From a virus (Duplodnaviria; Heunggongvirae; Uroviricota; Caudoviricetes): a stretch of 49,242 bases of DNA. The DNA lies in the IMG/VR virus record IMGVR_UViG_2690316195_000003; one strand, 5' to 3'. The notes beneath the pieces are model-generated. The model worked only from the letters and a program-made list of their open reading frames with translations, was not told the origin of the DNA and ran no database searches. A program made the translations under genes and the position numbers. Shown here piece after piece: positions 1-31,557 of the stretch (position 1 is its first letter; each line of letters starts with the position of its first letter).

Positions 1-21
1 CTACGGTAACCCACTCTTTTG

Positions 22-67
22 TTGCCCCATTTTTGCCCCTTTTGCAGCGTTTTGCCCCATTTTTGCC
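22..67. repeat. two direct copies of TTGCCCCATTTTTGCC (22-37 and 52-67), 30 bp apart
   Basis: Exact 16-nt direct repeat read in the sequence; lies downstream of the autotransporter gene end. Confidence 0.6.
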
Positions 68-246
68 ACCGAAAAATGCGAGAATTTCTCAATCTGTAGC
101 CTGCAAATTGCGCCCATGAATTCTTTCCAAGAGAATCAGTTTCGGCTGGAAATCATTCAATACTCACACTAAAACAAAAAGCCCGCTTATGGTGGACTGC
201 AGGCTTTTAGATTCCGTGATTTAAAAACAATAGTTATAGAAACAAA

Positions 247-1533
247 TTACCAGCCTACAGCAATACCCCCTCCGATTACTGCTCCATCAGTATTATTCCA
301 TGAAGACGATGCACGAATATTGGTGTTTTCATTAAGTTTGTATTGAACACCAACAGCTACTGCATTACCGTTTCTATAGTTACCAACCCCAACGCCGGCA
401 CTAAATGTCTGGTTATTCACATACGGGATATTGGTCATTGCTGCTACGGAAGCAATACCTGCATTAGCTTTTTTAGCATTAGCTTCTATCTTATCATTCA
501 GCTGCTTAAATGTTGAATTTATCTTCCCATTAATTTGGTTAAATTTTGTATCAGTATATGCGAATGATTCTTGTTTTGCTGATTGTATGTTTTTATTAAT
601 AACACCGTTATTTTTCGTAACTTCCTGATCAGTGTATGCCATTGATTCGCTTTTGGCATTATTAATATTCTGATTTATCACAGCATTATTTTTGGTAACC
701 TGCTGATCTGTATATGCCAGTGATTCATTCTTGGCATTATTAATATTCTGATTTATTACAGCATTATTTTTGGTAACCTGCTGATCTGTATATGCCAGTG
801 ATTCATTCTTGGCATTATTGATGTTTTGATTAATTACGGTATTATTTTTAGCTATCTCATTCCCAGTATAATCTTTCAGTTGCTTAACGTTAACACCATC
901 AGTATCCTCAGTACCTGCGGCAACATGGGTCAATTGTCGATTAGTATTACCCGTCCCAAAAGATACACTATACTCTCTGTCAGTTGTACTTCCCCCGCCG
1001 ATGGCAACACTATTATTATGTTCAGCCACACTCTGTGAGCCTAGTGAGATGGCATTTTCTGCATTAGATGTAGCCCCTACACCAATAGCTAATGTATCTC
1101 CTGCAGTCGCCTGGGCGGAGGAACCAAATGCAACACTGTTTTCCCCGGTTGCTTTAGACGCAGCACCTACACTTGTAGAATTAGCGACTGCCTCACTACC
1201 CGCACCATTTGCTATAGCTGAATCACCGTTTACTTTACTAAATGAACCAATGGCTACCGAGTTATTTCCAACAACATTTGCATTTGCGCCAATAGCTGAC
1301 GATGAGTTACCTTGAGATGAAGAATATGAACCAATTGCAGTATTATAGGCTCCTTCGGTTTTTGAAACAGCGCCAATTGTTGTAGAAGAAGAACCTGAAG
1401 CATTTGCATATGCACCAATAGCTGTCGCATTACTATCAGTTGCCTGGCTATTATCACCGGCATTATAAGAATTATATGCATAAGAATTTGCTGAAACTGT
1501 AAATATAACAGAGGCTACAAATAGTTTTTTCAT
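247..1533 (-). CDS. YadA-like trimeric autotransporter adhesin (Eib-like prophage moron)
   Basis: Start moved to the internal ATG giving MKKLFVASVIFTVSANSYA (signal peptide); Ser/Ala/Asn/Gly-rich head, repeated stalk units, and a C-terminal anchor ending ...GVGNYRNGNAVAVGVQYKLNENTNIRASSSWNNTDGAVIGGGIAVGW typical of the YadA membrane anchor. Confidence 0.7.
   Translation of the reverse strand: MKKLFVASVIFTVSANSYAYNSYNAGDNSQATDSNATAIGAYANASGSSSTTIGAVSKTEGAYNTAIGSYSSSQGNSSSAIGANANVVGNNSVAIGSFSKVNGDSAIANGAGSEAVANSTSVGAASKATGENSVAFGSSAQATAGDTLAIGVGATSNAENAISLGSQSVAEHNNSVAIGGGSTTDREYSVSFGTGNTNRQLTHVAAGTEDTDGVNVKQLKDYTGNEIAKNNTVINQNINNAKNESLAYTDQQVTKNNAVINQNINNAKNESLAYTDQQVTKNNAVINQNINNAKSESMAYTDQEVTKNNGVINKNIQSAKQESFAYTDTKFNQINGKINSTFKQLNDKIEANAKKANAGIASVAAMTNIPYVNNQTFSAGVGVGNYRNGNAVAVGVQYKLNENTNIRASSSWNNTDGAVIGGGIAVGW
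538..855. repeat. tandem coding repeats of about 78 bp (3 good copies plus 1 degenerate) inside the adhesin stalk
   Basis: Near-identical units ctgatctgtatatgccagtgattcattcttggcattattaatattctgatttattacagcattatttttggtaac; encode repeated AYTDQQVTKNNAVINQNINNAKNESL. Confidence 0.75.
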
Positions 1534-2329
1534 AGAAATGACGTATGTTAAATAGATTGAAAAGATAAGATTCAAATCAATTAAATGACGCTTTAAAAAT
1601 AAGCGGCAGGATTTTATTCATCTGATAAAAATAGCGCAAGAGTTGTCTTATATGGAATATTCAGATAAGTCTTATTGAAAAAAACGGTATAACAAATACA
1701 TAACATTACGGCCATTATACATACATTATAAAAATTACAGAGATATTTAATTAAATCCAAAGCATTTTTTCAATATGGATTTCGAAGAACTTGTTATAGT
1801 ACATTAATCAATCAATTATTGGTATTTCGCTCACTGTTCATATAGTTTTAATACATCAATGCATAAGAACATTTTCTCATTCATAAAAGCGATAAAAACT
1901 GTTGTACCTTATATTGTTAATGTTTGGTAACAAAGACAAATCCAACAAGGCATTGATCATCCCCTATGATACCCATAGAAAGAATTATCTGACATATAAT
2001 AACGATATAAAGTATATTATTGCTAATGAAACTATATGATAGCTTCACATTCAGCAATACCTGCTCAACCTTATCTCTGGAAATGAACATTGCTAACTTT
2101 CCTACTCCTTAATCGTTCTCCCAGAGCGCATCATCCACACCGACAATCCCCTCAGGCATCAGCCAGGTGACATTTTCCGCTAATGGGCTGGTTCAGAGAT
2201 AAATAGTGCGTCCCCGGAAGCCAAGTCAAAGAGCATTTTTCCCCTGTGACCTTCAACGGCTACTTACTGTTTAAAAACAGCTACGATGCCAGCATAGATA
2301 CTCTTGAATACGATGTACTACGTTTTTTC

Positions 2330-3062
2330 TTATTCTGGACTGAACTCCCTAACCTGCTTCAAATCCAGGAGATTGCTCAGTTCCTCTTTCATTTCACGCT
2401 GATGACGATAAATCTCATTATTGCGATCAACCTGCGCCATAGCTGCAGCCAGCTCCTCCAGTTCCGTCATCGACAGTTTCACCTGCTGATTATCAGCATC
2501 ACTCCATGTCATAACGTCCCACTGCCCTGAGTTAGCCCCTGCAGCCATTACCACCGGGTAAAGGCGGGCCAGCGAGTCGGGGCCGCCATTCCAGGTGTGT
2601 CCGTTCCATTCGAATGTGAACGGCTGCGCTTCCTGTTCTGTGCGCCACACCTCGATTTCCCGCTTTCTGGCATCCTTTCCCACGGCGATAAGTTCTGGCG
2701 TGACGGTGAACGCAGGGCTGTCCAGTGGCGCTTTTGTTTTCGTCTCGTCCATGACGGTTTTGACAGCCTTTGGCGTGGCTGCCAGTACTTCGCTGTCGTT
2801 GTCTGTATCACTACAGAGTTGCGCCAGACCTTTTTTGTCGTGGAAGCATTGCTTCCCTTCAGATCATCAACTATCCATTGCGCCTCGTCCCTGTGCTGTT
2901 TCGCGCTCTGCTGCGCCTGCACCACAGTTTCCTGTCACCACGTCGGCAACTGTGCGCATCACACCTCTGAGGTGTTTACCCGGGATTTCAGAGTTATGTG
3001 GCATCCGTACATGGGGATGCCTGCGCCATCAATCAGCGCACCTGATATCACTACAGACATAG
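2330..3062 (-). pseudogene. side tail fiber (lambda Stf / stfR-like) remnant, truncated and frameshifted
   Basis: Minus-strand ATG at 3060 encodes MSVVISGALIDGAGIPMYGCHITLK (Stf-like N-terminus) then a stop after 33 codons; in another frame the conserved tail-fiber motif KGLAQL...LAATPKAVKTVMDETKTKAPLDSPAFT appears, continuing into the 140-aa ORF 2330..2752. Confidence 0.5.
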
Positions 3063-3083
3063 TTTTTCTCGCGATAAATTAAA

Positions 3084-3629
3084 TCAGGAAGAGGCTTCCA
3101 GAGAGACGGGCCATTCAATGGCGTTATATGAGGATTTATCAGTGATGGTGCTGAAATCCATCGCCTGCAGCGATTTCGCGTAAATGCGGTACGCTTTCAG
3201 CTTCTCCCTGTCGTCGTCACTGATTAATCCCAGCAGCAGGTCTTTTTCCCATTCGCTGGTCATGATGCTGACCCGTTGTAACAGGGCATCGCGCTCATCT
3301 TCCGCTTTAAGTTTGTAGTCGAAGACAAATTTATCGTCGCGGTAAAACCAGTAACCAGGCACGGTAATACGGCGGTTAGCGGTAATATCAGGAACTTCAA
3401 TAACACTGGCGTTACGGGGTTCAATGCCTGTCACATCCTTACCGACCCATACCACGCGCCCGTCTCCGGTGTAAACCATTTTTATGGTGTCACTGGCAAA
3501 ATTTTTCAGCTCTTCATACCAGTTTTGGTCATCTTCCGAAAAAAGCCAGGTGATACCATGTTGTTTTGTCATCTGATATTGTTCTGCGGTTTTCGGATTG
3601 CCTGCAGTAATATTTTTTAAATGCAACAT
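3084..3629 (-). CDS. tail fiber assembly protein (P2 gpG / Tfa family)
   Basis: N-terminus MLHLKNITAGNPKTAEQYQMTK...NWYEE...VIEVPDITANRR matches the Tfa signature; immediately downstream of the tail fiber gene. Confidence 0.8.
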   Translation of the reverse strand: MLHLKNITAGNPKTAEQYQMTKQHGITWLFSEDDQNWYEELKNFASDTIKMVYTGDGRVVWVGKDVTGIEPRNASVIEVPDITANRRITVPGYWFYRDDKFVFDYKLKAEDERDALLQRVSIMTSEWEKDLLLGLISDDDREKLKAYRIYAKSLQAMDFSTITDKSSYNAIEWPVSLEASS

Positions 3630-3631
3630 TG

Positions 3632-5185
3632 TTAAACACTCGCCACGTTATACCAGGTGCCGTTAATCAGTTTCTGAAGCGGTCGGTAATACACGCCGTT
3701 GACGTTATCCGCTGAATTTTTACCAGTATCCGATATCGATATCCCTGACAATCCGTGTCCCGCAGGAGCGTGATATGTCCAAGAGATTACATTGCTGCCA
3801 GGTTTGTAATACATTTCGGAACCATAGCGCACATCCTGCACGCCGCCATTTCGCTGCTGATAACGGGCATCGAAATTTCCATAGTTTGATGGGGTCATCT
3901 GTCCGTTTACAGCGAATGTGATACTGCCATCGGTATTTCTCTGGCTGTAAAAATGCCAGCCGGAATCATCACCAAGCTCTGCAACTACAGGTCGGGATGA
4001 ATTACCCCATAAATTAAACGTTGCGTTTTTCGTGGAGTTGTTGGCGCTGGATAACGTGAATTTTTTAGCATTTCCGGCCTGAATATTTTTTAACGCTATC
4101 GCCACACCATTCTGGAAACGAAATACATGCTGTCCATTCGCATAAACATCCAGAATGCCGTCGCCGTTTTGTTTTATACCTGTATCGTTATCCCCGAAAG
4201 CAATTGAGTTTCCGCCCAGCGCGTTCTGAACGCCGATACCCAGTGCACCATTGACCTGAGAACCACCGCCAACAGACACTTTATGCGACATGGATATCTC
4301 TCCTGTCCGCAAATTAATGGTGAGCGGACGCAGGGGACCAATATCTCCATTCTCGCCCTGACCTTCACTAGTAGGGATAAGGTGCAGGCACTCTTCAGAA
4401 CGGCGAAAAATAAGGCCAAAAGCCTCGTTAAAAATCCTCAATGCATTAACACCACGTATTTTCAGCTCCCCGGTCATCAAATCACCAGATTTTTTTACAT
4501 ATCGCAGATCAAAATCTGAATAGATATTGCCGGGGTTTATCACACTGAAATAGCTTTTCTCGCTATCAAGAAGGCAAATCAAAGGAATACCCTTAATGAT
4601 ATCATTCGCTACCAGCTCGGACTTGTTCCCCTTATAAAGTGGGAACGTACCAAGAACCTTTCCGCCTAGTGTTAGTTGAAGTGTCGCCGCGTTGGTATTG
4701 TTCTGAACGGGGAAAACTATAATCGGGGTTCGTAGCGTCCAATCTGTACCTCCATTAACAAAAAACGTCGAGGGAAGTTCCAGCGTCAGTGCGTTTGCAG
4801 TGCCACCAGTAACACCCGCAATATAATGACCGCTCTGAAGCTGCGCTATCTGTACGAAATAGTTTTCCGAACCACGCGTGGCAAAGTTAGCCACAACATC
4901 ATTAAGGGACCAACCTTTCGCGGTTGTTCCTTCCTGCCCACGAATGACTTTCAACACATCACCGCTTACCGATACCAAGTGACAAATCTCAAATGCAGAC
5001 TCTTTATTATCGGTAAGCGTAATTTTTGCATAGACGCGTTGCCCGTTCGATTTATTTTCAAAATCGGCAGAAAGCAATTTTGCAAATTTAGCCCCTGTAC
5101 CGGGCATTACCGGAATATCAGTCTGAATCGTGGTGATATCACCAGCCAGTGCTGAAACAACGTTATTGCCGAACCCAAGAATCAT
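3632..5185 (-). CDS. tail fiber protein with P2 gpH-like C-terminal domain
   Basis: C-terminal ~200 aa (NALGGNSIAFGDNDTGIKQNGDGILDVYANGQHVFRFQNGVAIALKNIQAG...YRPLQKLINGTWYNVASV) closely resembles the P2 H receptor-binding region. Confidence 0.85.
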   Translation of the reverse strand: MILGFGNNVVSALAGDITTIQTDIPVMPGTGAKFAKLLSADFENKSNGQRVYAKITLTDNKESAFEICHLVSVSGDVLKVIRGQEGTTAKGWSLNDVVANFATRGSENYFVQIAQLQSGHYIAGVTGGTANALTLELPSTFFVNGGTDWTLRTPIIVFPVQNNTNAATLQLTLGGKVLGTFPLYKGNKSELVANDIIKGIPLICLLDSEKSYFSVINPGNIYSDFDLRYVKKSGDLMTGELKIRGVNALRIFNEAFGLIFRRSEECLHLIPTSEGQGENGDIGPLRPLTINLRTGEISMSHKVSVGGGSQVNGALGIGVQNALGGNSIAFGDNDTGIKQNGDGILDVYANGQHVFRFQNGVAIALKNIQAGNAKKFTLSSANNSTKNATFNLWGNSSRPVVAELGDDSGWHFYSQRNTDGSITFAVNGQMTPSNYGNFDARYQQRNGGVQDVRYGSEMYYKPGSNVISWTYHAPAGHGLSGISISDTGKNSADNVNGVYYRPLQKLINGTWYNVASV

Positions 5186-5808
5186 TTTTGAATCACCGTT
5201 GTTGCATAAGAATAAATAAAAGGGAGTTTTACATATTTCTGGTCAATGGCATCTTTCAGAAAATAGCCTATACCATCACCATATTCTGGTATATGAATAG
5301 AAAAAACACTGTCCGACACAGTCACGCTCACATCAAAAGTGTGCTGCAACGGCGGGTCTATTCCGTTTTTCCCATGAATGAACCGTGCCACACGGCGCTT
5401 TAACCAGTCAATGCAGAAATGCGAACCGTCAGCCTTATAAAAATTCCAAGTTAATATTCGCTTGAAATAATCATCCGGAACATACGATGCCTGCCCCGGA
5501 ACATAATTCCGCATTGCCGCATAAGGGATTGTATTGTATTCAATGGTATCGTATGCGCCGCGTGCAATAGCCTCCTCGGAAACCTGTAGTAAAGGCCTTT
5601 CAACGCCATAAATCCCGAGAGCAATCCAGTCCAGCAATTGCCCGGTTATTGATTCCGATGTCCAGCATGGCAATGCCAGATTGTTGAGTGAATCGAGGTA
5701 TTCCTGAGCAATTTCATTGTATGCATCAAAGAACGCAACAACATTCGGATCATCTCTGTACTGCACAAACGGATAAGCAGGGAGAATTTTTTCAGTCAGA
5801 TATTGCAT
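5182..5808 (-). CDS. tail/baseplate protein (P2 gpI-position)
   Basis: ORF between the baseplate J-like gene and the tail fiber; start placed at the internal ATG (MQYLTEK) to limit overlap; start uncertain. Confidence 0.45.
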   Translation of the reverse strand: MQYLTEKILPAYPFVQYRDDPNVVAFFDAYNEIAQEYLDSLNNLALPCWTSESITGQLLDWIALGIYGVERPLLQVSEEAIARGAYDTIEYNTIPYAAMRNYVPGQASYVPDDYFKRILTWNFYKADGSHFCIDWLKRRVARFIHGKNGIDPPLQHTFDVSVTVSDSVFSIHIPEYGDGIGYFLKDAIDQKYVKLPFIYSYATTVIQK

Positions 5809-7018
5809 ACTTGTTAACTTGAACCTGTGATGCCACTGTCGAAAAATAGGAATAGGTATCGCCATAAACCAGGCTTGTGTCTTTTGCCGGAAGAACAATA
5901 TGACCATTAATGCCAATGCTCACACTGATTGTTGAGATCAACGTCGCATCAACCAGCAACCTGACAGAACTGGTAAAAATATCCTGGATACGCAGAAGAT
6001 TTATCGGGTGTCCGACTTCAATTGAATTGATGTAATCAGCAACGTTTTGCTGCACAGCCATAGCAATACCCGCCGGATCAACATAATCATCAGACACCGT
6101 GTTCCAGGTGATTAGCACCATGACGTTTTGTGATGACGGGATAACGAACGGCACCTGATAAACGTCCGGCGAAACGGTTATTGAAACCGTGCGTTTTTCC
6201 ACTGCCGCACCGGATGGATTGCTTACATCGTTGGTCAGTTTCGAAATATCCGGTACAGATTTGTAAATCGCATAAGCCACATCATACGGATCACCGCCAC
6301 CAACAACCGCAACCCATTTCCCCAGCGACGACTGCCGGAAAGAAATCAGGTTTTCTCGCACACCGCTTACTGATTTGAGCATCGCTTTATAGCAATCCGG
6401 TGTTCCCTGCACACCAAACATACCGGACTCCATGACTTCGGCGCGGTAAGATGCCCACGTCTGCGCCTCCTGACCTGGCATCCCTGCGGTAAGGTTCGTG
6501 CATTTTACAGGCTGGTCTTTTGGTACTGAGGTAATAACCTGCGTCACAGTCCCTTCCGGTACAGCCCATGAGCCTGACGTTGTGGCCACACAGTAGACTG
6601 GTTCAGTCTGCCCACTTTCCGGCACCACCGTATCGCGGGAAACTGCATACTGGTAGTTGCCATCACCGACAACAAATCCTTTAGGGATACCAAACCCCGG
6701 CAACGCCTCAAATACCACGTATACCGCCGTATTTGTACTTAATCCCTTCTGTGCTCCATAAATGTTTCCGAGTTGCATCAGTAACGGAATATTTGCGCCG
6801 TATGGGCTTACGGAGTTAATAAGGTCCACCCGCGCCTGGTCTATTAATGCCAGCGCCCCGACTGCCGTGCTGGCAAGGTCAGTAATAAGCCCCGCCGGAA
6901 GGTTGGCTGTATATCCAGGTACTTTTTCAGCAACTCTGATGATAAGATTTGCAAGCAAATCATTGGGTGGCGTAGGCTGCGCCCCCGCACTGGTCATAGT
7001 AATTGGTATTTCTGACAT
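5792..7018 (-). CDS. baseplate J-like protein
   Basis: 408-aa protein in the baseplate-wedge position upstream of the tail fiber; GGAG ribosome-binding site before the ATG at 7018. Confidence 0.6.
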   Translation of the reverse strand: MSEIPITMTSAGAQPTPPNDLLANLIIRVAEKVPGYTANLPAGLITDLASTAVGALALIDQARVDLINSVSPYGANIPLLMQLGNIYGAQKGLSTNTAVYVVFEALPGFGIPKGFVVGDGNYQYAVSRDTVVPESGQTEPVYCVATTSGSWAVPEGTVTQVITSVPKDQPVKCTNLTAGMPGQEAQTWASYRAEVMESGMFGVQGTPDCYKAMLKSVSGVRENLISFRQSSLGKWVAVVGGGDPYDVAYAIYKSVPDISKLTNDVSNPSGAAVEKRTVSITVSPDVYQVPFVIPSSQNVMVLITWNTVSDDYVDPAGIAMAVQQNVADYINSIEVGHPINLLRIQDIFTSSVRLLVDATLISTISVSIGINGHIVLPAKDTSLVYGDTYSYFSTVASQVQVNKYAISD

Positions 7019-7030
7019 ATTTACTCCATT

Positions 7031-7056
7031 AAAAAACCCGCTTTCGCGGGTTTTTT
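7031..7056. terminator. bidirectional rho-independent terminator-like hairpin
   Basis: aaaaaacccgc-tttc-gcgggtttttt: GC stem with A-run upstream and T-run downstream; sits between the stop of the nuclease-like moron and the start of the J-like gene. Confidence 0.6.
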
Positions 7057-7058
7057 AC

Positions 7059-8234
7059 TTATTCAACCTCTTCTAAACTGCTCACTCTGGACCCTCGGCG
7101 GAAATTATCATCATTTTTAACATACTCGTATGAATCCAGAATCAAACCAGATATGCGAAGTATATCTTCCGGATTAGTTATATGTATCCTTTTACCATCC
7201 GTATCAAGTCGAGCTCGTCTTATTTCATTCAACTGAACTTCACTAAGCGAAATAGGTAAAGTTATAAATGAAGATTTTTTATCATAAAATCTTAACAGCC
7301 ATCTATTAGTTTTACCATTCAATAGCACACCAAAATATGACTCAGTATCTTTATATTCTATATTATCTTCTGTTTGTATGATTTGTTTTACCCTTTCAAA
7401 TAGCTCCAATTCTTTGGCTGTGGTTATTATGTTGGGGTTTTCTTCATCAACAATGGCGTTATTAACTTGTGTATCCGTTGCATCATTTTCTTTAGTTTGC
7501 TCTACCGGTTGTGTAGATAGCCCGGAAACCACCATTGCGCTAACAGCGCGCTCAACGGCCTGTTTAACTAATGGAGTCACGAACTCAAGAAATCTCTGAT
7601 TAAGTTGTCTCTCAATATTTGAACGACTAGCAACATATCGAACAAACTCCAGATCAACTTCACGAAGACTAGAACTGATTGTTTTAGTAAATGAATTCAA
7701 ATAAACACTTTCTTCAGCCAGTGTCCGTAAAGCCTCTGGTTTGAATTTATCATAACGAAAACGAAATAATTGTGTAATATCGGAGTGAGTTAGAGAATCC
7801 ATTCTTATTTTTAAAAACGGCGTTGAATCCATTATGTTTTTTTGTTTCAAATCCGTAAAAAAACGCCATTCAACACCATTTGTAATGGCTGATATAGTAA
7901 CTTCCGGTGTTGAATTAAAATATCTTGATAGCTGTGGGCAGTGATTATCAATTTGTTCTGAAAACGATTTCGCCTCAATGAACATCACAGGAACATCATG
8001 ACAAAATAAAGCGTAATCAACCCGTTCATTAGCCTTAACCCCGGGGAAGTCAGCACTATACTCAGCTTTGACTTTTCTTGGATCATACGGAGTAAAACCA
8101 AGAATATCTAGTAATGGCATAATGAGTGCTTGTTTTGTCGTTTCTTCAGTTGTACAAAACACCCCCATTTTTGCAACATGCTCTGTGTGTATTTTTAACT
8201 TATTTGCAAAATTTTCCATGCTTGTCTCCTCCAT
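7059..8234 (-). CDS. PD-(D/E)xK nuclease-like protein (type I restriction HsdR N-terminal-like domain) with uncharacterised C-terminal half
   Basis: N-terminal region ...TKQALIMPLLDILGF...ERVDYALF...VMFIEAKSF... fits the D...(D/E)xK catalytic core; visibly AT-rich relative to flanking tail genes; strong ribosome-binding site ggaggagacaag before the ATG; own terminator. Confidence 0.55.
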   Translation of the reverse strand: MEETSMENFANKLKIHTEHVAKMGVFCTTEETTKQALIMPLLDILGFTPYDPRKVKAEYSADFPGVKANERVDYALFCHDVPVMFIEAKSFSEQIDNHCPQLSRYFNSTPEVTISAITNGVEWRFFTDLKQKNIMDSTPFLKIRMDSLTHSDITQLFRFRYDKFKPEALRTLAEESVYLNSFTKTISSSLREVDLEFVRYVASRSNIERQLNQRFLEFVTPLVKQAVERAVSAMVVSGLSTQPVEQTKENDATDTQVNNAIVDEENPNIITTAKELELFERVKQIIQTEDNIEYKDTESYFGVLLNGKTNRWLLRFYDKKSSFITLPISLSEVQLNEIRRARLDTDGKRIHITNPEDILRISGLILDSYEYVKNDDNFRRGSRVSSLEEVE

Positions 8235-8368
8235 GGTAACAATATGTATTTTGCAAATCCGAAATAATATATGTCAATATGCTCCAGCTTAGAAAATTAC
8301 TCGCCCCCCTAAAATATCTCTCTACAGCACTCCAAACCAAGGTAAAAGTTTTATCATAAAACTGTGAT
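8235..8368 (-). promoter_or_regulatory. AT-rich putative promoter region of the nuclease-like moron
   Basis: Minus-strand TTGACA at 8273-8278 followed by AT-rich spacer; no -10 element confidently assigned. Confidence 0.3.
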
Positions 8369-8716
8369 TCATACCGGCACCTGCGTCCGGTAACTGGTCC
8401 CATTAAAAAACACAACATCGATGTTATAGGTGGGGTTATCTGCTCCATCTACCTTTGAAATTGCCAGTGATGCAAAATACCCAGCAAACTGTTGCTGAAC
8501 CATGTTCACATAGTAGTCTGGGTAAATCTGCTGCACGATGCACTGCTGTGCAGGAATACCGTAATTCGCGTAAAACGGCGACTCCCCCAATCCCAGCTTT
8601 AACGTCTGAATGAGCGTCGTCAGCCAGCCGTAGGAGAAATCACCGTTGGCGTCAGATTCTACTGCAACCCATTTTTTGTTGCCGTTCGCGTCGGTGACGC
8701 GGCCCCATGTTCTCAT
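8369..8716 (-). CDS. phage baseplate protein (gpW-position), function inferred from position
   Basis: 115-aa ORF between the spike-like and J-like genes; no motif recognised. Confidence 0.4.
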   Translation of the reverse strand: MRTWGRVTDANGNKKWVAVESDANGDFSYGWLTTLIQTLKLGLGESPFYANYGIPAQQCIVQQIYPDYYVNMVQQQFAGYFASLAISKVDGADNPTYNIDVVFFNGTSYRTQVPV

Positions 8717-21510: not shown

Positions 21511-22324
21511 GTTTGCCCTTCTCCGTTAAAAATTCGTCGGGTAGTTTCTGAGGGGCGTAGATCGGCAGAGCATCGCAACTGCAATAAACCTCCTCCCCGG
21601 CAGCAGTGATTTCGTCATAAAAACCATATACGGGCTTAATAAGCCCCTGCTCCAGCGCCCACGAATCGCGGAGGAGATAAATTTTCTCGTCGCGCTCTTT
21701 GTGGTCCTGTCGGTATTTGTAGCCCGGACGCCGCCAGTTAGAATGCCAGCGCAGAGCAATCGCACCACTCTGAACAGCCAGCAGATACTTAACGTTGCTC
21801 GCCAGCTTATGTCCCTGGTCAATTGCCACCCGGCGACTGATAAAATCCATATCCTTCACGGACTTCTGAAAACCGGACTTCACTTCCCGGCGATCAATTT
21901 CGCTCACCCCGTCAGGCGGAATGGACGTAACCCATCCCTGAAAACGCTGTATGGTTTTCTCGATAGCCTGTTCGCGGTTGAGTTTTATCAGGTTGGCACT
22001 GGCGAAAATTCGCCTGTCTAGTTCCTTGCGAAACTCAGGTTTCAGTTTTTCAACAGTGATTTTTTTAGGGCCGTCAGGAGGCTGATCCCGTAATGCCCCG
22101 CCGTCGATGACAAGACGGCTGTAGATAGCGGTGAGGTGTTTTCTGGCTACGGTATCATCAGGGGTTTCTCGCTGAGCGGCTACACGGAGTTTCCGGCACC
22201 ATTCGAGCAATGATTTTTCGCTATCCCACCCGTGATTTACGTAGTAGTTAACGGCATCCGTCAGAACCTCATATAGCGTCCTGATCCGTTTCTTCTTCCT
22301 CACCGCCCGGCTGGAAATTGCCAT
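21491..22324 (-). CDS. head morphogenesis protein (minor head protein, Mu F-like position)
   Basis: ORF downstream of the portal gene; start placed at the internal ATG (MAISSRAV...) to reduce overlap with portal; start uncertain. Confidence 0.4.
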   Translation of the reverse strand: MAISSRAVRKKKRIRTLYEVLTDAVNYYVNHGWDSEKSLLEWCRKLRVAAQRETPDDTVARKHLTAIYSRLVIDGGALRDQPPDGPKKITVEKLKPEFRKELDRRIFASANLIKLNREQAIEKTIQRFQGWVTSIPPDGVSEIDRREVKSGFQKSVKDMDFISRRVAIDQGHKLASNVKYLLAVQSGAIALRWHSNWRRPGYKYRQDHKERDEKIYLLRDSWALEQGLIKPVYGFYDEITAAGEEVYCSCDALPIYAPQKLPDEFLTEKGKREFNRA

Positions 22325-23708
22325 CAGGCGTCTCCTGCTTCGGTGGTTCATAATTCGCCAGCGCGTCCACATCAATGATGAGTGGAGCTTCGCCATAGGT
22401 TTGCGTGGCATTAACAAGGCTTGCCAGCCATTCAGTGACGGCGGCACGGTTTTCAGGATCAACCTGTGGCGACACGGCAGAGAAAAGTGCTATCGCCTGT
22501 TGAATCACTTTACTGTCGCTTTCCCGGCGTTTGTCCGGCGACTCCTCCACCAGCTCCTGCCATGTCGCGGTAAATTCACGTCGCCACTGGTAAAACGTGG
22601 TTTTATAGTCATCAGTTATGATGTCCGGGTAATCATTTTTCAGCGACTGATAAAATTCCTCGTTCCAGGCGATGTACTGCACCAGGCGTTCGAAATAATC
22701 CATCACGGGTTCAATCTGCTGGCGTACACCATCGATATACTGGCTGATGGCTTTCGAATCTTCGGTCCCCTCACCGAAACCATTCGAAAAGGCTTCCTCT
22801 TTGATGAGGATCGCCGGAACGTCACTCCCTGACGCAATATCGGAAATAATATTGTCGCGTGCAGCGTTTAGCGCACCATCGATGTTTTGTAGATTTAGCG
22901 AGGTAACGTCCTCATCCTTCCCGATACTAAGCACACCTTTATTTTTTGCCTCTTTGACGTTTTCCCTTTTTCGTCCCGTGGCGGCAGCCATGATCCCGTC
23001 AAGTTTCGAACCGTACTGCACAACTTTAGCTACCAGTACGCCCGCCTTCTGGCTGACGAGATCATTCGCCTCCATCGTGTTGATATAGGATTTCAGGGAA
23101 TAAAGAACGCGCTGAAACACACTACGTCCGGTGAATCCGAACGATGAACTCTGAAACTCCAGATAAATCGGTGTGCCGTTGAAGATTTTCAGTGTGCGTG
23201 ACGGATGCCAGTCTTTCCCACCAATCTTCAGTTTTTTATTGGCTTCCTGGAAAAACGGGCTGTTGGGGTTCTGGTCAGTCACCATCGAACCGGAAGCGTT
23301 CAACGGGTCCCACGCGTTGATATACACGTCATCTTCTGTCAGTCCGAACGTCGGAAGCGGTTCACGACATGGAACGCTGTCGGTGCCCACGCCGATCGCT
23401 GCAGCACCGTAGCAACGAGACAGAAAAAACAGATTTTTAATCTTCTCGTTGACCTTCATGCGTTCCCATACCTCCTGAAAACGCCTCACAACCCTCTCGT
23501 CAGGGTCTGTCTCCACGTTATACTGGCGCGGCTTACACATCGCCATCAGTATGGGTTTTTCGACAAGTTTTCCGCCCAGAGGATGGAATTGCCACAGCTG
23601 CTTACACAATTCATAGCCAATGTCGGTTCCCGGCTGAATTTCTTCAGCCTCAAGAATATGCATCAGTGCTGAACCGAGGCCGCCAGTAATCTCGATCTCT
23701 GCCATCAA
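22269..23708 (-). CDS. portal protein
   Basis: 479-aa ORF immediately downstream of the terminase large subunit; acidic C-terminus. Confidence 0.6.
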   Translation of the reverse strand: MMAEIEITGGLGSALMHILEAEEIQPGTDIGYELCKQLWQFHPLGGKLVEKPILMAMCKPRQYNVETDPDERVVRRFQEVWERMKVNEKIKNLFFLSRCYGAAAIGVGTDSVPCREPLPTFGLTEDDVYINAWDPLNASGSMVTDQNPNSPFFQEANKKLKIGGKDWHPSRTLKIFNGTPIYLEFQSSSFGFTGRSVFQRVLYSLKSYINTMEANDLVSQKAGVLVAKVVQYGSKLDGIMAAATGRKRENVKEAKNKGVLSIGKDEDVTSLNLQNIDGALNAARDNIISDIASGSDVPAILIKEEAFSNGFGEGTEDSKAISQYIDGVRQQIEPVMDYFERLVQYIAWNEEFYQSLKNDYPDIITDDYKTTFYQWRREFTATWQELVEESPDKRRESDSKVIQQAIALFSAVSPQVDPENRAAVTEWLASLVNATQTYGEAPLIIDVDALANYEPPKQETPDGNFQPGGEEEETDQDAI

Positions 23709-31014: not shown

Positions 31015-31557
31015 TCAAGCCGTTTTTTGAGCGAATGATTCTCGCATAGGAATGTATAGCGCATACTCAGCAACGGCCAACCAATTAGCAATTCGCTTTT
31101 CGCATGTGCTAAAACACCACTCTGGGTGTGCATCATTTAGCAATTCAGCCATTTTGCGTTTGGTCATCCCCCGCCCCTCATACCGTTGACGAAGGACGCT
31201 AATCAATCCTGGATGCTCTGCCAGCACCTCACTTATGACCCGATCAATACATAACGCCTCTGCATCAGTACAATGCGCCAGCCAGCTCTTTTGCTTACCG
31301 TTAATCATATCCCGCAAAAAAGCCTCAAGTTCAGACTTGTTCAGACCTGCTTTTTTCATCCTCCGGAGCGCCTCGTTAATTGCCGTTTTTGTCAGCTTTT
31401 TAGAGGCCAACAACTGGTTGAACATATTCCCCGTCTTACCGCCGCCAATATACGACCAGCGCCCCCACATGCGCAGTTTTCCCTGAATCCAGACACTTTC
31501 CAGCGTGGTGAGACGAAGGTGTTCCCCGCTTTTGCCTGTATTTGTTGGGTAAATCAT
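31015..31557 (-). CDS. late-gene antitermination protein Q-like
   Basis: Position after YbcN/YbcO-like genes and before a terminator and the lysis genes; ribosome-binding site ggagaaagg before the internal ATG (MIYPTNTGKS); family call by position rather than motif. Confidence 0.5.
   Translation of the reverse strand: MIYPTNTGKSGEHLRLTTLESVWIQGKLRMWGRWSYIGGGKTGNMFNQLLASKKLTKTAINEALRRMKKAGLNKSELEAFLRDMINGKQKSWLAHCTDAEALCIDRVISEVLAEHPGLISVLRQRYEGRGMTKRKMAELLNDAHPEWCFSTCEKRIANWLAVAEYALYIPMRESFAQKTA

What the first reader, a model, noticed from the sequence alone, without database searches (positions are those of the whole stretch)
7019..8368. PD-(D/E)xK nuclease-like moron splitting the baseplate genes, with its own promoter region and terminator
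A 391-aa protein whose N-terminal ~150 aa carry a D...(D/E)xK motif in the pattern of type I restriction HsdR N-terminal / Mrr-like nuclease domains, fused to an unassigned ~200-aa C-terminal region. The gene is markedly AT-rich compared with the flanking tail genes, has a strong ribosome-binding site and an AT-rich upstream region, and ends with a terminator hairpin only 13 bp before the J-like gene's ribosome-binding site. The insertion therefore places a terminator inside the tail operon, implying read-through or a secondary promoter for J expression. Single-gene nuclease morons in structural hotspots are frequent anti-phage or superinfection-exclusion factors.
Basis: partly seen in the sequence, partly recalled or inferred. 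Interest (0 to 1): 0.75.

Follow-up and report, generated by a model that had tools for sequence, protein, structure and literature searches.

The report
Solitary HsdR-type nuclease moron in prophage
A Rac-type E. coli prophage carries, wedged between two baseplate genes, a self-contained AT-rich gene cassette for a stand-alone DNA-cutting enzyme of a very widespread but functionally untested family, whose usual position next to prophage repressors suggests that it protects the lysogen against other phages.

Summary
Window 7019-8368 is a 1350-bp cassette on the minus strand. It has 35.6% GC against 47% in the flanks. Its parts are a sigma-70-like promoter, a GGAGGAG ribosome-binding site, a 386-aa ORF (the true start is probably 8219, not 8234) and a strong terminator hairpin 12 nt before the J-like gene's ATG.

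About 100 of 5426 complete E. coli genomes carry this baseplate region. Twenty-five have this gene in the slot. The other joined matches listed carry unrelated cargo there, such as antirepressors and LprI-family genes. So it is dispensable cargo in a hotspot, a moron.

The protein has four parts: an HsdR-type PD-(D/E)xK nuclease domain with invariant D68, E82-x-K84 and Q96xxxY100, a helical connector, an acidic linker, and a C-terminal acidic YdhG/YjbR-like alpha/beta domain with no Pfam match. It is not a Type I HsdR, because it has no motor domains and no hsdM/hsdS nearby.

The family is huge, spans many phyla and has no conserved partner gene. In other prophages it typically sits just downstream of the repressor, or between repressor and integrase.

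My best reading is a nuclease expressed in the lysogen that defends against incoming phage. That role is inferred, not shown: PADLOC has no match and I found no functional study. A Q-like antiterminator in the same prophage explains read-through of the terminator.

The parts
7019..8368 (-). Replaceable accessory cassette (moron) that fills the whole space between the 115-aa W-position gene and the J-like gene
   Evidence: Homology to Rac-SA53 and pPE4 ends at about 7027 and at 8369. GC is 0.356 against 0.473 in the flanks. Of about 100 E. coli genomes with these flanks, 25 have this cassette and the other joined matches listed have other cargo.
7059..8219 (-). CDS for a 386-aa solitary HsdR-N-type nuclease (RefSeq WP_000426902.1). 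An in-frame upstream ATG at 8234 would give 391 aa.
   Evidence: dN is 0.095 against a 78%-identical Stx2-prophage copy with dS saturated, which indicates purifying selection.
7800..8219 (-). N-terminal PD-(D/E)xK nuclease domain (aa 1-140). Catalytic codons: D68 at 8016-8018, E82 at 7974-7976, K84 at 7968-7970, Q96 at 7932-7934, Y100 at 7920-7922.
7515..7787 (-). Helical connector (aa 145-235, long helices 161-186 and 208-234)
   Evidence: AlphaFold2 model, pLDDT 70-94
7449..7514 (-). Variable, acidic, disordered linker (aa 236-257)
   Evidence: pLDDT below 50 over aa 235-252. This is the most variable and gapped region of the alignments.
7101..7448 (-). C-terminal alpha/beta domain (aa 258-373) with a YdhG/DUF1801-YjbR-like fold, net acidic, no Pfam family
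8248..8277 (-). Candidate sigma-70 promoter: TTGACA (8277-8272), 18 nt, CAAAAT (8253-8248)
   Evidence: 10 of 12 consensus positions, the best site in the region. It is a consensus match only and is not shown to function.
8226..8232 (-). Shine-Dalgarno GGAGGAG, 6 nt upstream of the ATG at 8219
   Evidence: Read directly from the sequence
7031..7056 (-). Intrinsic terminator hairpin (A6-CCCGC-GAAA-GCGGG-T6). It is symmetric and so potentially bidirectional. It begins 2 nt after the TAA stop codon, and its T-run ends 12 nt before J's ATG.
   Evidence: dG -17.4 kcal/mol, z -5.0. Inverted repeat I1. Sequence.
5792..7018 (-). Downstream flank: baseplate J-like gene (408 aa), SD GGAG at 7027-7024
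   Evidence: Pfam Baseplate_J 1.4e-8 and phrog_6 2.5e-38
8369..8716 (-). Upstream flank: 115-aa gene in the position of P2 gpW (phrog_7986, function unknown)
   Evidence: No Pfam match. The W-like identity is inferred only from size and gene order.
31015..31557 (-). Q-like late-gene antiterminator of the same prophage. It is not part of the cassette, but it explains read-through of the cassette's terminator.
   Evidence: phrog_753 9.8e-80. All late genes from 31.5 kb to 2 kb lie on the minus strand.

Best explanation
SHOWN
- The segment is a self-contained accessory cassette (a moron) in a variable slot of the tail/baseplate operon of a Rac-type lambdoid E. coli prophage.
- It encodes a 386-aa stand-alone enzyme.
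- The N-terminal domain is the RecB-like PD-(D/E)xK nuclease domain found at the N-terminus of Type I HsdR and Type IIG/IIL restriction enzymes. Its full catalytic set (D68, E82xK84, Q96xxxY100) is conserved.
- A helical connector and a flexible acidic linker join it to a C-terminal acidic alpha/beta domain of YdhG/YjbR-like fold.

INFERRED
- The gene is transcribed from its own sigma-70 promoter in the lysogen. This would mirror homologues in other prophages, which sit directly behind the repressor gene in the position that rexAB occupies in lambda.
- The protein acts as a single-protein nuclease that destroys incoming foreign (phage) DNA, protecting both the lysogen and the prophage.
- The nuclease domain is the effector.
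- The C-terminal domain is acidic and of a fold better known for ligand or protein binding than for DNA binding. It is more likely a regulatory or recognition module than a classical DNA reader. It would keep the nuclease off the unmodified host chromosome and license it on a feature of infection.
- During lytic growth, Q-modified RNA polymerase reads through the cassette's terminator, so J and the tail-fibre genes are still expressed.

Rough probabilities
- Accessory nuclease moron: about 0.9.
- Anti-phage or anti-MGE defence as its function: about 0.55-0.6.
- Within defence, direct targeting of invader DNA is about as likely as a trigger-activated (abortive) mode.

The confidence given (0.58) is for the whole statement including the defence role.
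For: Moron status
- The junctions with relatives are exact.
- 25 of about 100 E. coli genomes with this baseplate region carry the gene. The other joined matches listed carry AntA/AntB antirepressor, LprI-family, Rha or hypothetical genes in the same slot, on the opposite strand in the two relatives examined.
- GC is 0.356 against 0.473 in the flanks, and GC3 is 0.258.
- A promoter-like site, an SD and a terminator are present.

Active nuclease
- Pfam HSDR_N and HSDR_N_2 match above their cut-offs.
- The catalytic residues are invariant across 79 sequences down to 26-30% identity.
- Purifying selection is strong: N-domain dN/dS is about 0.03.

Solitary gene
- No hsdM/hsdS or other conserved partner appears in the window.
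- None appears in 80 species-level loci either.

Lysogeny-module context of homologues
- Citrobacter: 22 bp downstream of a CI-type repressor.
- Salmonella: 31 bp downstream of a RacR-type repressor.
- Klebsiella phage KpF5: just after the repressor.
- S. pneumoniae IPP25: between the repressor and the integrase.
- Lacticaseibacillus and Clostridium phages: a similar position.
- Stx2 prophage: the moron slot after Q.
- Porphyromonas phage: beside HicAB.
- 24 of 80 loci have a CI-like repressor upstream and/or an integrase downstream on the same strand.
- The commonest immediate neighbours are HTH_3, Peptidase_S24, Peptidase_M78 and integrases.

Precedents
- P2-like phages have a known defence hotspot (Z/fun) among their tail genes (cited text).
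- Solitary nucleases are the commonest class in functional defence selections (paper 10.1101/2025.02.28.640651).

Read-through
- The prophage encodes a Q-like antiterminator.
Against: - There is no experimental evidence for any function of this family. I found none in ten literature searches, and one paper states that the role of a C. jejuni HsdR N-terminal-domain protein of similar size 'remains unclear'.
- PADLOC 2.0 has no match, so the family is not a recognised defence family in that release.
- In this slot the usual cargo is regulatory (antirepressors), not defence.
- Some family members are chromosomal singletons among housekeeping genes, for example in Gilliamella. That also fits a housekeeping or DNA-repair role.
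- The C-terminal domain is acidic and matches no known modified-base reader, so the self/non-self mechanism is unknown.
- Several prophages that carry homologues also carry DNA methyltransferases. This sits awkwardly with a simple methyl-dependent restriction model.
- The promoter is only a consensus match, and AT-rich DNA may be silenced in E. coli.
Confidence: 0.58

Rival explanations
1. Trigger-activated (abortive-infection or Shedu-like) nuclease. The acidic C-terminal YdhG/YjbR-like domain would autoinhibit the nuclease or sense a phage protein, a ligand or free DNA ends. On infection, the released nuclease would degrade DNA indiscriminately, killing or arresting the cell. This is a sub-model of defence, not an alternative to it.
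For: - The C-domain is net acidic in all 79 members.
- Its fold group (YdhG/DUF1801, YjbR) is not that of any established DNA-modification reader.
- A flexible linker separates it from the nuclease.
- The RecB-type QxxxY motif is invariant.
- From my own knowledge: single-protein sensor-effector designs such as Shedu and CapRel are established.
Against: - No trigger is known.
- No toxicity data exist.
- Nothing in the sequence separates this model from direct restriction.
- The inter-domain arrangement in the model is uncertain (pTM 0.54).
Confidence: 0.25
2. A nuclease that serves the phage's own lytic programme rather than lysogen defence. Examples would be host-DNA degradation, recombination or replication processing, or counter-defence against satellites or competing elements.
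For: - The gene lies inside the late operon and on the same strand as the late genes, so late read-through transcription would also express it.
- PHROG files the family under 'DNA, RNA and nucleotide metabolism'.
Against: - Most otherwise near-identical prophages lack the gene.
- In other phages it is co-oriented with the repressor and integrase in the lysogeny module, not with replication genes.
- Chromosomal copies exist outside prophages.
- The gene has its own promoter and terminator.
Confidence: 0.1
3. A selfish, homing-type endonuclease whose cassette spreads by cutting empty sites. The occupancy of different hotspots would then reflect its own mobility rather than a benefit to the host.
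For: - Related copies sit in at least three different prophage hotspots in Enterobacterales: the baseplate slot, after the repressor, and after Q.
- The replacement is precise at intergenic boundaries.
- A 12-nt direct repeat lies near both edges of the cassette.
Against: - Only the CDS is shared between contexts, not the promoter or terminator (the 78% copies match only query positions 74-1202).
- The slot holds unrelated cargo in relatives, which points to general recombinational exchange.
- The family is stably conserved in chromosomal positions within Gilliamella.
- The 12-nt repeat is 31 nt away from the right junction and may be chance (expected about 0.1-0.2 by my estimate).
Confidence: 0.04
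4. A remnant or subunit of a Type I restriction-modification system, as the RefSeq name 'type I restriction endonuclease' implies.
For: - The name given in RefSeq and UniRef.
- The HSDR_N domain match.
Against: - The protein has 386 aa and no helicase or translocase domains.
- It scores 18.9 bits against the NCBIfam full-length HsdR model, whose cut-off is 729.
- No hsdM or hsdS lies nearby in the window or in the 80 loci.
- The full-length architecture, with its own C-terminal domain, is conserved across phyla, so the protein is not a truncation.
Confidence: 0.01

Closest known systems
Nuclease domain of Type I HsdR (EcoR124I, PDB 2w00; V. vulnificus HsdR fragment 3h1t) and of Type IIG/IIL enzymes (BpuSI 3s1s, DrdV 7lo5)
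   Different: It has no SF2 motor, no methyltransferase or specificity partner, and no fused MTase/TRD. Instead it has a helical connector and a unique acidic C-terminal alpha/beta domain.
Solitary defence nucleases: Type IV restriction enzymes (Mrr, McrBC), PD-T4-3, HEC-06, MdgA/MdgB, and Shedu SduA
   Same: These are single-gene (or near-single-gene) nucleases with no cognate methylase. They are carried on mobile elements and combine a nuclease with an accessory domain. They are the commonest class in functional defence selections (paper 10.1101/2025.02.28.640651).
   Different: The nuclease family differs: HSDR_N, not Mrr_cat, GIY-YIG or DUF4263. No DUF4268, SRA, EVE or winged-helix reader is detectable. 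PADLOC has no match. Activity and specificity are untested.
Lysogen-expressed exclusion genes next to the repressor (lambda rexAB; Salmonella BTP1 bstA) and morons of lambdoid late operons (lambda lom/bor, HK97 morons, the P22 immI ant region, the P2 Z/fun tail-gene hotspot)
   Same: The homologues occupy the repressor-adjacent slot. In this window the gene is a promoter-gene-terminator unit inside the late operon of a phage with a Q antiterminator. Relatives hold an ant module in the same slot. The P2 tail-gene hotspot is a precedent.
   Different: The proteins are unrelated. The resemblance lies in genome position and regulatory logic only. The rexAB, bstA and immI comparisons rest on my own knowledge.
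YdhG/DUF1801 and YjbR/DUF419 (MmcQ/YjbR) small alpha/beta proteins
   Different: It has no sequence-profile membership. The functions of those families are themselves poorly defined. Here the domain is fused to a nuclease and is consistently acidic.

Membership tests
Pfam HSDR_N / HSDR_N_2 (HsdR-type PD-(D/E)xK nuclease domain) | Profile match above the curated gathering score | tested here: met
   PF04313 scores 52.9 bits (cut-off 25.1) and PF13588 scores 37.7 bits (cut-off 25)
Pfam HSDR_N / HSDR_N_2 (HsdR-type PD-(D/E)xK nuclease domain) | Catalytic D...(D/E)xK plus the RecB-type QxxxY motif present and conserved | tested here: met
   D68, E82, K84, Q96 and Y100 are invariant in 79 sequences
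Pfam HSDR_N / HSDR_N_2 (HsdR-type PD-(D/E)xK nuclease domain) | Restriction-endonuclease-like fold that superposes on solved HsdR nuclease domains | tested here: met
Type I restriction endonuclease, HsdR subunit (the RefSeq name) | SF2 helicase/translocase motor domains and a C-terminal domain that contacts the methyltransferase | tested here: not met
   Pfam finds only the HSDR_N domains in the 386-aa protein. NCBIfam PRK11448 scores 18.9 bits against a cut-off of 729.
Type I restriction endonuclease, HsdR subunit (the RefSeq name) | Linked hsdM and hsdS genes | tested here: not met
   None is present in the window. None appears among the recurrent or immediate neighbours of 80 loci.
Moron (accessory unit in a phage operon, in the sense used for HK97 and lambda) | Present in some and absent from other closely related phages, with exact junctions between conserved genes | tested here: met
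Moron (accessory unit in a phage operon, in the sense used for HK97 and lambda) | Own promoter and terminator flanking the gene | tested here: inconclusive
   The terminator hairpin is strong (z -5.0). The promoter is a 10-of-12 consensus match only. Transcription was not measured.
Moron (accessory unit in a phage operon, in the sense used for HK97 and lambda) | Base composition that deviates from the surrounding phage genes | tested here: met
   GC 0.356 against 0.473 in the flanks. GC3 0.258 against 0.41-0.59 in neighbouring genes.
PHROG 4225 ('endonuclease') | Full-length profile match | tested here: met
   E 4.7e-149, residues 6-375 on profile positions 1-357 of 357
Recognised anti-phage defence families (PADLOC-DB 2.0.0) | Match to any defence-protein HMM | tested here: not met
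   0 families at E<=1
Type IV (modification-dependent) restriction enzymes | Nuclease without a cognate protective methyltransferase | tested here: met
   The gene is solitary in the window and across 80 loci
Type IV (modification-dependent) restriction enzymes | A recognisable modified-base or DNA reader domain (SRA, EVE/YTH/ASCH, Mrr_N winged helix, DUF4268 and the like) | tested here: not met
   The C-domain has no Pfam hit at E<=10. Its fold is YdhG/YjbR-like and it is net acidic.
Type IV (modification-dependent) restriction enzymes | Cleavage that depends on DNA modification | not testable with these tools
   This needs in vitro digestion of modified against unmodified phage DNA, or plating of T4 against T4-GT7
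YdhG/DUF1801 - YjbR/DUF419 domain families (C-terminal domain) | Sequence-profile membership | tested here: not met

The most novel reading that the evidence does not exclude
This protein would represent an uncharacterised single-protein anti-phage immunity family found across many bacterial phyla. In this reading an HsdR-type nuclease is gated by an acidic YdhG/YjbR-like sensor domain, an effector-sensor pairing not described for any defence system. The family would be one of the commonest cargoes of the repressor-adjacent (rexAB-like) slot of temperate phages from Enterobacterales to Firmicutes.
Probability: 0.45. Interest if true: 0.65.

Novelty: new variant of a known kind. Interest (0 to 1): 0.45.

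Why it matters
If the inference is right, a very common and routinely mis-named prophage gene ('type I restriction endonuclease') is really a stand-alone immunity nuclease. Temperate phages of many phyla would be placing it in their immunity operon. That would add a widespread family to the list of prophage-encoded defences. It would also give a function to a YdhG/YjbR-like domain that currently has none.

The gene makes a compact test case, because it is a single gene with clear catalytic residues and natural isogenic controls. Of about 100 E. coli genomes that carry this baseplate region, about 75 lack this gene. In the joined matches I listed, the same slot holds other cargo.

If the inference is wrong, the finding is still a clean, well-delimited example of a moron in a baseplate-gene hotspot of Rac-type prophages. 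It is also a correction to a misleading annotation.

Tried and rejected
- PADLOC scan of the protein: no hit.
- NCBIfam: only a sub-threshold local hit to full-length HsdR.
- PDB sequence and profile searches with two alignments: no relatives.
- First AlphaFold run, using only Enterobacterales homologues: too poor to use (pLDDT 62). It was replaced by a run with 79 sequences from two deep clades (pLDDT 86).
- The AFDB50 fold library was unavailable.
- Exhaustive HMMER search with the C-terminal domain alone: mostly the same architecture or short proteins. Of ten hits scanned, three carried HSDR_N, one WYL and one a weak TPR. No informative promiscuous partner emerged.
- Pfam scan of five C-domains at E<=10: only noise.
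- MdgA, a nuclease from metagenomic selections with catalytic residue E77: considered as a possible identity and rejected. It is defined by a DUF4268 domain, which this protein lacks.
- Rfam scan of the region: only sub-threshold hits driven by the terminator hairpin.
- The simple terminator scanner missed the hairpin. RNA folding confirmed it.
- Flanking repeats as att-like sites: only a 12-nt repeat that is offset from the junction. I judged it inconclusive.
- dN/dS over the full length could not be computed because dS is saturated.
- Ten literature searches found no functional study of this family. The library lacks many subscription papers, so absence there is not proof.
Full report
**What is at the coordinates**

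The finding lies on the minus strand. An ORF runs from 8234 to 7059 and would give 391 aa. The second in-frame ATG, at 8219, is the better start. It is preceded by GGAGGAG (8232-8226) with a 6-nt spacer. RefSeq annotates 7059..8219 in an identical E. coli genome, as WP_000426902.1 of 386 aa. The PHROG profile match begins at residue 6. Homologues are 381-391 aa long.

Upstream of the start there is a sigma-70-like site: TTGACA (8277-8272), an 18-nt spacer and CAAAAT (8253-8248). It matches 10 of 12 consensus positions and is the best such site in the region. It is only a consensus match.

Two nucleotides after the TAA stop codon lies AAAAAACCCGC-GAAA-GCGGGTTTTTT (7056-7031). This folds at -17.4 kcal/mol, with z = -5.0, and none of 200 shuffles folds as well. 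Its T-run ends 3 nt before the GGAG and 12 nt before the ATG (7018) of the J-like baseplate gene.

The cassette is 35.6% GC, against 47.3-47.4% in the 5-kb flanks. Its GC3 is 25.8%, against 41-59% in the neighbouring tail genes. The refinements are the strand, the start codon and the exact spacing.

**It is an insert in a hotspot**

The window is a Rac-type lambdoid prophage integrated next to ttcA. It carries racR-like immunity genes, kilR, recET, ralR and intR. All of its late genes lie on the minus strand.

Two sequenced phages, Escherichia phage Rac-SA53 and the so-called Actinobacillus phage vB_Apl-pPE4, are about 95% identical on both sides of the cassette. Between the same two genes they carry something else: two or three genes on the opposite strand, including an antirepressor. 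Alignment places the junctions at about 7027 and at the stop codon of the 115-aa gene at 8369.

In 5426 complete E. coli genomes, about 100 carry this baseplate region. Twenty-five of them have this cassette at 99% identity or more. In the other joined matches listed, both flanks are present and the slot holds other cargo of roughly 0.9-2.7 kb: AntA/AntB or Ant antirepressors, LprI-family proteins, Rha regulators and hypothetical proteins.

**The protein**

Pfam finds HSDR_N (5.6e-14) and HSDR_N_2 (2.4e-9), both above their gathering scores, and nothing else. PHROG 4225 ('endonuclease') matches over the full length at 4.7e-149.

An AlphaFold2 model built on 79 sequences from two deep clades reaches a mean pLDDT of 86. 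It shows four parts:
- A nuclease domain (aa 1-140).
- Long connector helices (aa 145-235).
- A disordered acidic linker (aa 236-257).
- A compact alpha/beta domain (aa 258-373).

D68, E82, K84, Q96 and Y100 are invariant in all 79 sequences, which reach down to 26-30% identity. They form the RecB-type D...ExK...QxxxY set.

The gene is under strong purifying selection. Against a 78%-identical copy, dN is 0.095 while dS is saturated. For the N-domain, dN/dS is about 0.03.

The C-terminal domain has no Pfam match even at E<=10. It occurs mostly in this same architecture or in short proteins. It is net acidic in every family member, from -1 to -9.

**It is not a Type I HsdR**

The database name 'type I restriction endonuclease' fails as membership.
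- The protein has no motor domains.
- It scores 18.9 bits against the full-length HsdR model, whose cut-off is 729.
- No hsdM or hsdS lies nearby, either here or in 80 other loci.
- The 380-aa architecture is conserved from Enterobacterales to Firmicutes and Bacteroidota, so the protein is not a truncation.

**Distribution and context**

The family is very large.
- Two searches, each capped at 8000 scored candidates, returned 7963 and 7997 clusters (90% identity) at E<=1e-5.
These span Gamma-, Beta- and Alphaproteobacteria, Campylobacterota, Cyanobacteria, Bacillota, Bacteroidota, Planctomycetota and Synergistota.
- The exact protein of this window is on record on at least 1000 contigs.

There is no conserved partner gene. 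After clustering all ORFs within 5 kb in 80 loci, the most frequent neighbour family occurs in only 14 loci. That neighbour is a CI-like HTH/S24 repressor, upstream and mostly on the same strand. Serine or tyrosine integrases lie downstream on the same strand in 15 loci. Twenty-four of the 80 loci show one or the other, and 10 show both. Among the immediate neighbours, the commonest Pfam families are HTH_3, Peptidase_S24, Peptidase_M78 (ImmA-like), integrases and recombinases.

Individual cases are clear:
- In Citrobacter Rac-like prophages the gene starts 22 bp after the CI-type repressor gene.
- In Salmonella it starts 31 bp after a RacR-type repressor gene.
- In Klebsiella phage KpF5 it follows the repressor.
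- In S. pneumoniae phage IPP25 it lies between the repressor and the integrase.
- A Lacticaseibacillus phage and a Clostridium phage show a similar arrangement.
- In an Stx2 prophage of E. coli a 78% copy sits, antisense, in the classic moron slot after Q.
- In Porphyromonas phages it lies beside HicAB.
- In Bacteroides it lies beside YoeB/YefM.
- In Gilliamella it is a chromosomal singleton among housekeeping genes.

Only the coding sequence is shared between these contexts. The promoter and terminator seen here belong to this slot.

**How it most likely works**

What is shown is an accessory, independently punctuated gene for a catalytically intact HsdR-type nuclease with a novel C-terminal domain.

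What is inferred comes from its recurrent position behind prophage repressors. That is the position of rexAB in lambda and of bstA in Salmonella BTP1; this comparison rests on my own knowledge. From this I infer that the gene is expressed in the lysogen and that its product attacks incoming foreign DNA, as a single-protein immunity nuclease.

The self/non-self rule is unknown. A solitary nuclease without a methylase suggests modification-dependent restriction, as in Type IV enzymes. Solitary modification-dependent nucleases were the commonest class in a large functional selection (paper 10.1101/2025.02.28.640651). Three observations weaken a simple methyl-reader model:
- The C-domain is acidic.
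- It matches no known reader domain.
- Several host prophages carry methyltransferases.

A sensor-gated mode, Shedu-like or abortive, is about equally likely. I put defence at about 0.55-0.6 overall.

**The terminator inside the tail operon**

This needs no special mechanism. The prophage encodes a Q-like antiterminator (phrog_753, 9.8e-80) at the head of a single minus-strand late block. Q-modified polymerase ignores intrinsic terminators, which is established lambda biology. Relatives tolerate 1-2.7 kb of opposite-strand cargo at the same place. P2-like phages have a known defence hotspot (Z/fun) among their tail genes.

**Rivals**

- Trigger-activated nuclease, a sub-model of defence: 0.25.
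- A nuclease serving the phage's own lytic programme: 0.1. This is disfavoured by its absence from most sister prophages, its lysogeny-module context elsewhere and the chromosomal copies.
- Homing-type selfish endonuclease: 0.04.
- Type I R-M remnant: 0.01, refuted as membership.

**Novelty and score**

The gene is annotated in RefSeq and belongs to a known PHROG, so the sequence is not new. Morons and solitary defence nucleases are both known kinds. What appears new is the architecture, an HsdR-type nuclease joined to an acidic YdhG/YjbR-like domain, with no defence annotation in PADLOC 2.0. I also found no functional study. Many subscription papers are not in the library, so a recent characterisation cannot be excluded.

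I rate it a new variant of a known kind, with interest 0.45. It is a good, cheap experimental candidate with built-in natural controls, but not a surprise in kind.

Noticed in passing
L002 (PP818812.1, 'Actinobacillus phage vB_Apl-pPE4'), locus 1-6971: A phage deposited as infecting Actinobacillus pleuropneumoniae is about 95% identical to E. coli Rac-type prophages across the baseplate region. The host assignment looks doubtful; it may be an induced E. coli prophage or a contaminant.
   Followed up: no
window 22269-23705 (-): RefSeq names this 478-aa protein 'anti-CBASS protein Acb1 family protein'. PHROG matches it as a portal protein over residues 19-475 (phrog_146, 7.1e-75). The RefSeq name may be a mis-annotation, or the protein may be a portal with an embedded Acb1-like region.
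   Followed up: partly
window 8202-8212 and 8248-8258: Two copies of a near-palindrome, ATTT(T)GCAAA(A)T, lie 35 nt apart. The arms are 11 nt long and 100% complementary. One overlaps the candidate -10 hexamer and the other overlaps codons 3-6 of the nuclease gene. This could be an operator pair for a dimeric regulator, or chance in AT-rich DNA.
   Followed up: no
window 7026-7037 and 8400-8411: An exact 12-nt direct repeat, CCATTAAAAAAC, occurs twice. One copy is at the left edge of the cassette and partly overlaps the terminator. The other is 31 nt inside the upstream 115-aa gene. It could be microhomology left by the recombination that installed the cassette, or chance.
   Followed up: partly
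Hits H97 and H99 (NZ_CP026085.1, NZ_CM135829.1): Two genomes labelled E. coli DH5alpha carry the same variant of this prophage region as E. coli W, LY180 and KO11FL, with similar coordinates and genome size. The strain labels may be wrong.
   Followed up: no
window 169-1533 (-): A gene for a YadA-like family protein lies just beyond the tail-fibre and assembly genes at the end of the late operon. It may be another moron (an adhesin) or an unusual fibre module.
   Followed up: no
window 7101-7448 (-), C-terminal domain of the protein: Foldseek gives weak matches of the model to T4-type MotA, the middle-transcription activator with a double-wing DNA-binding domain. The hits are PDB 6k4y chain M (probability 0.92, E 0.03) and BFVD D9I6I5 (probability 0.38). 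It is unclear whether they reflect the helical connector plus the alpha/beta domain together.
   Followed up: no
L004 (NZ_AP045173.1) locus 6968-8125: A 78%-identical copy of the nuclease gene lies antisense between the Q antiterminator gene and the methyltransferase, tRNA and stx2 block of an Stx2 prophage. Three of the 5426 E. coli genomes have such a 78%-identical copy; only this locus was examined.
   Followed up: partly
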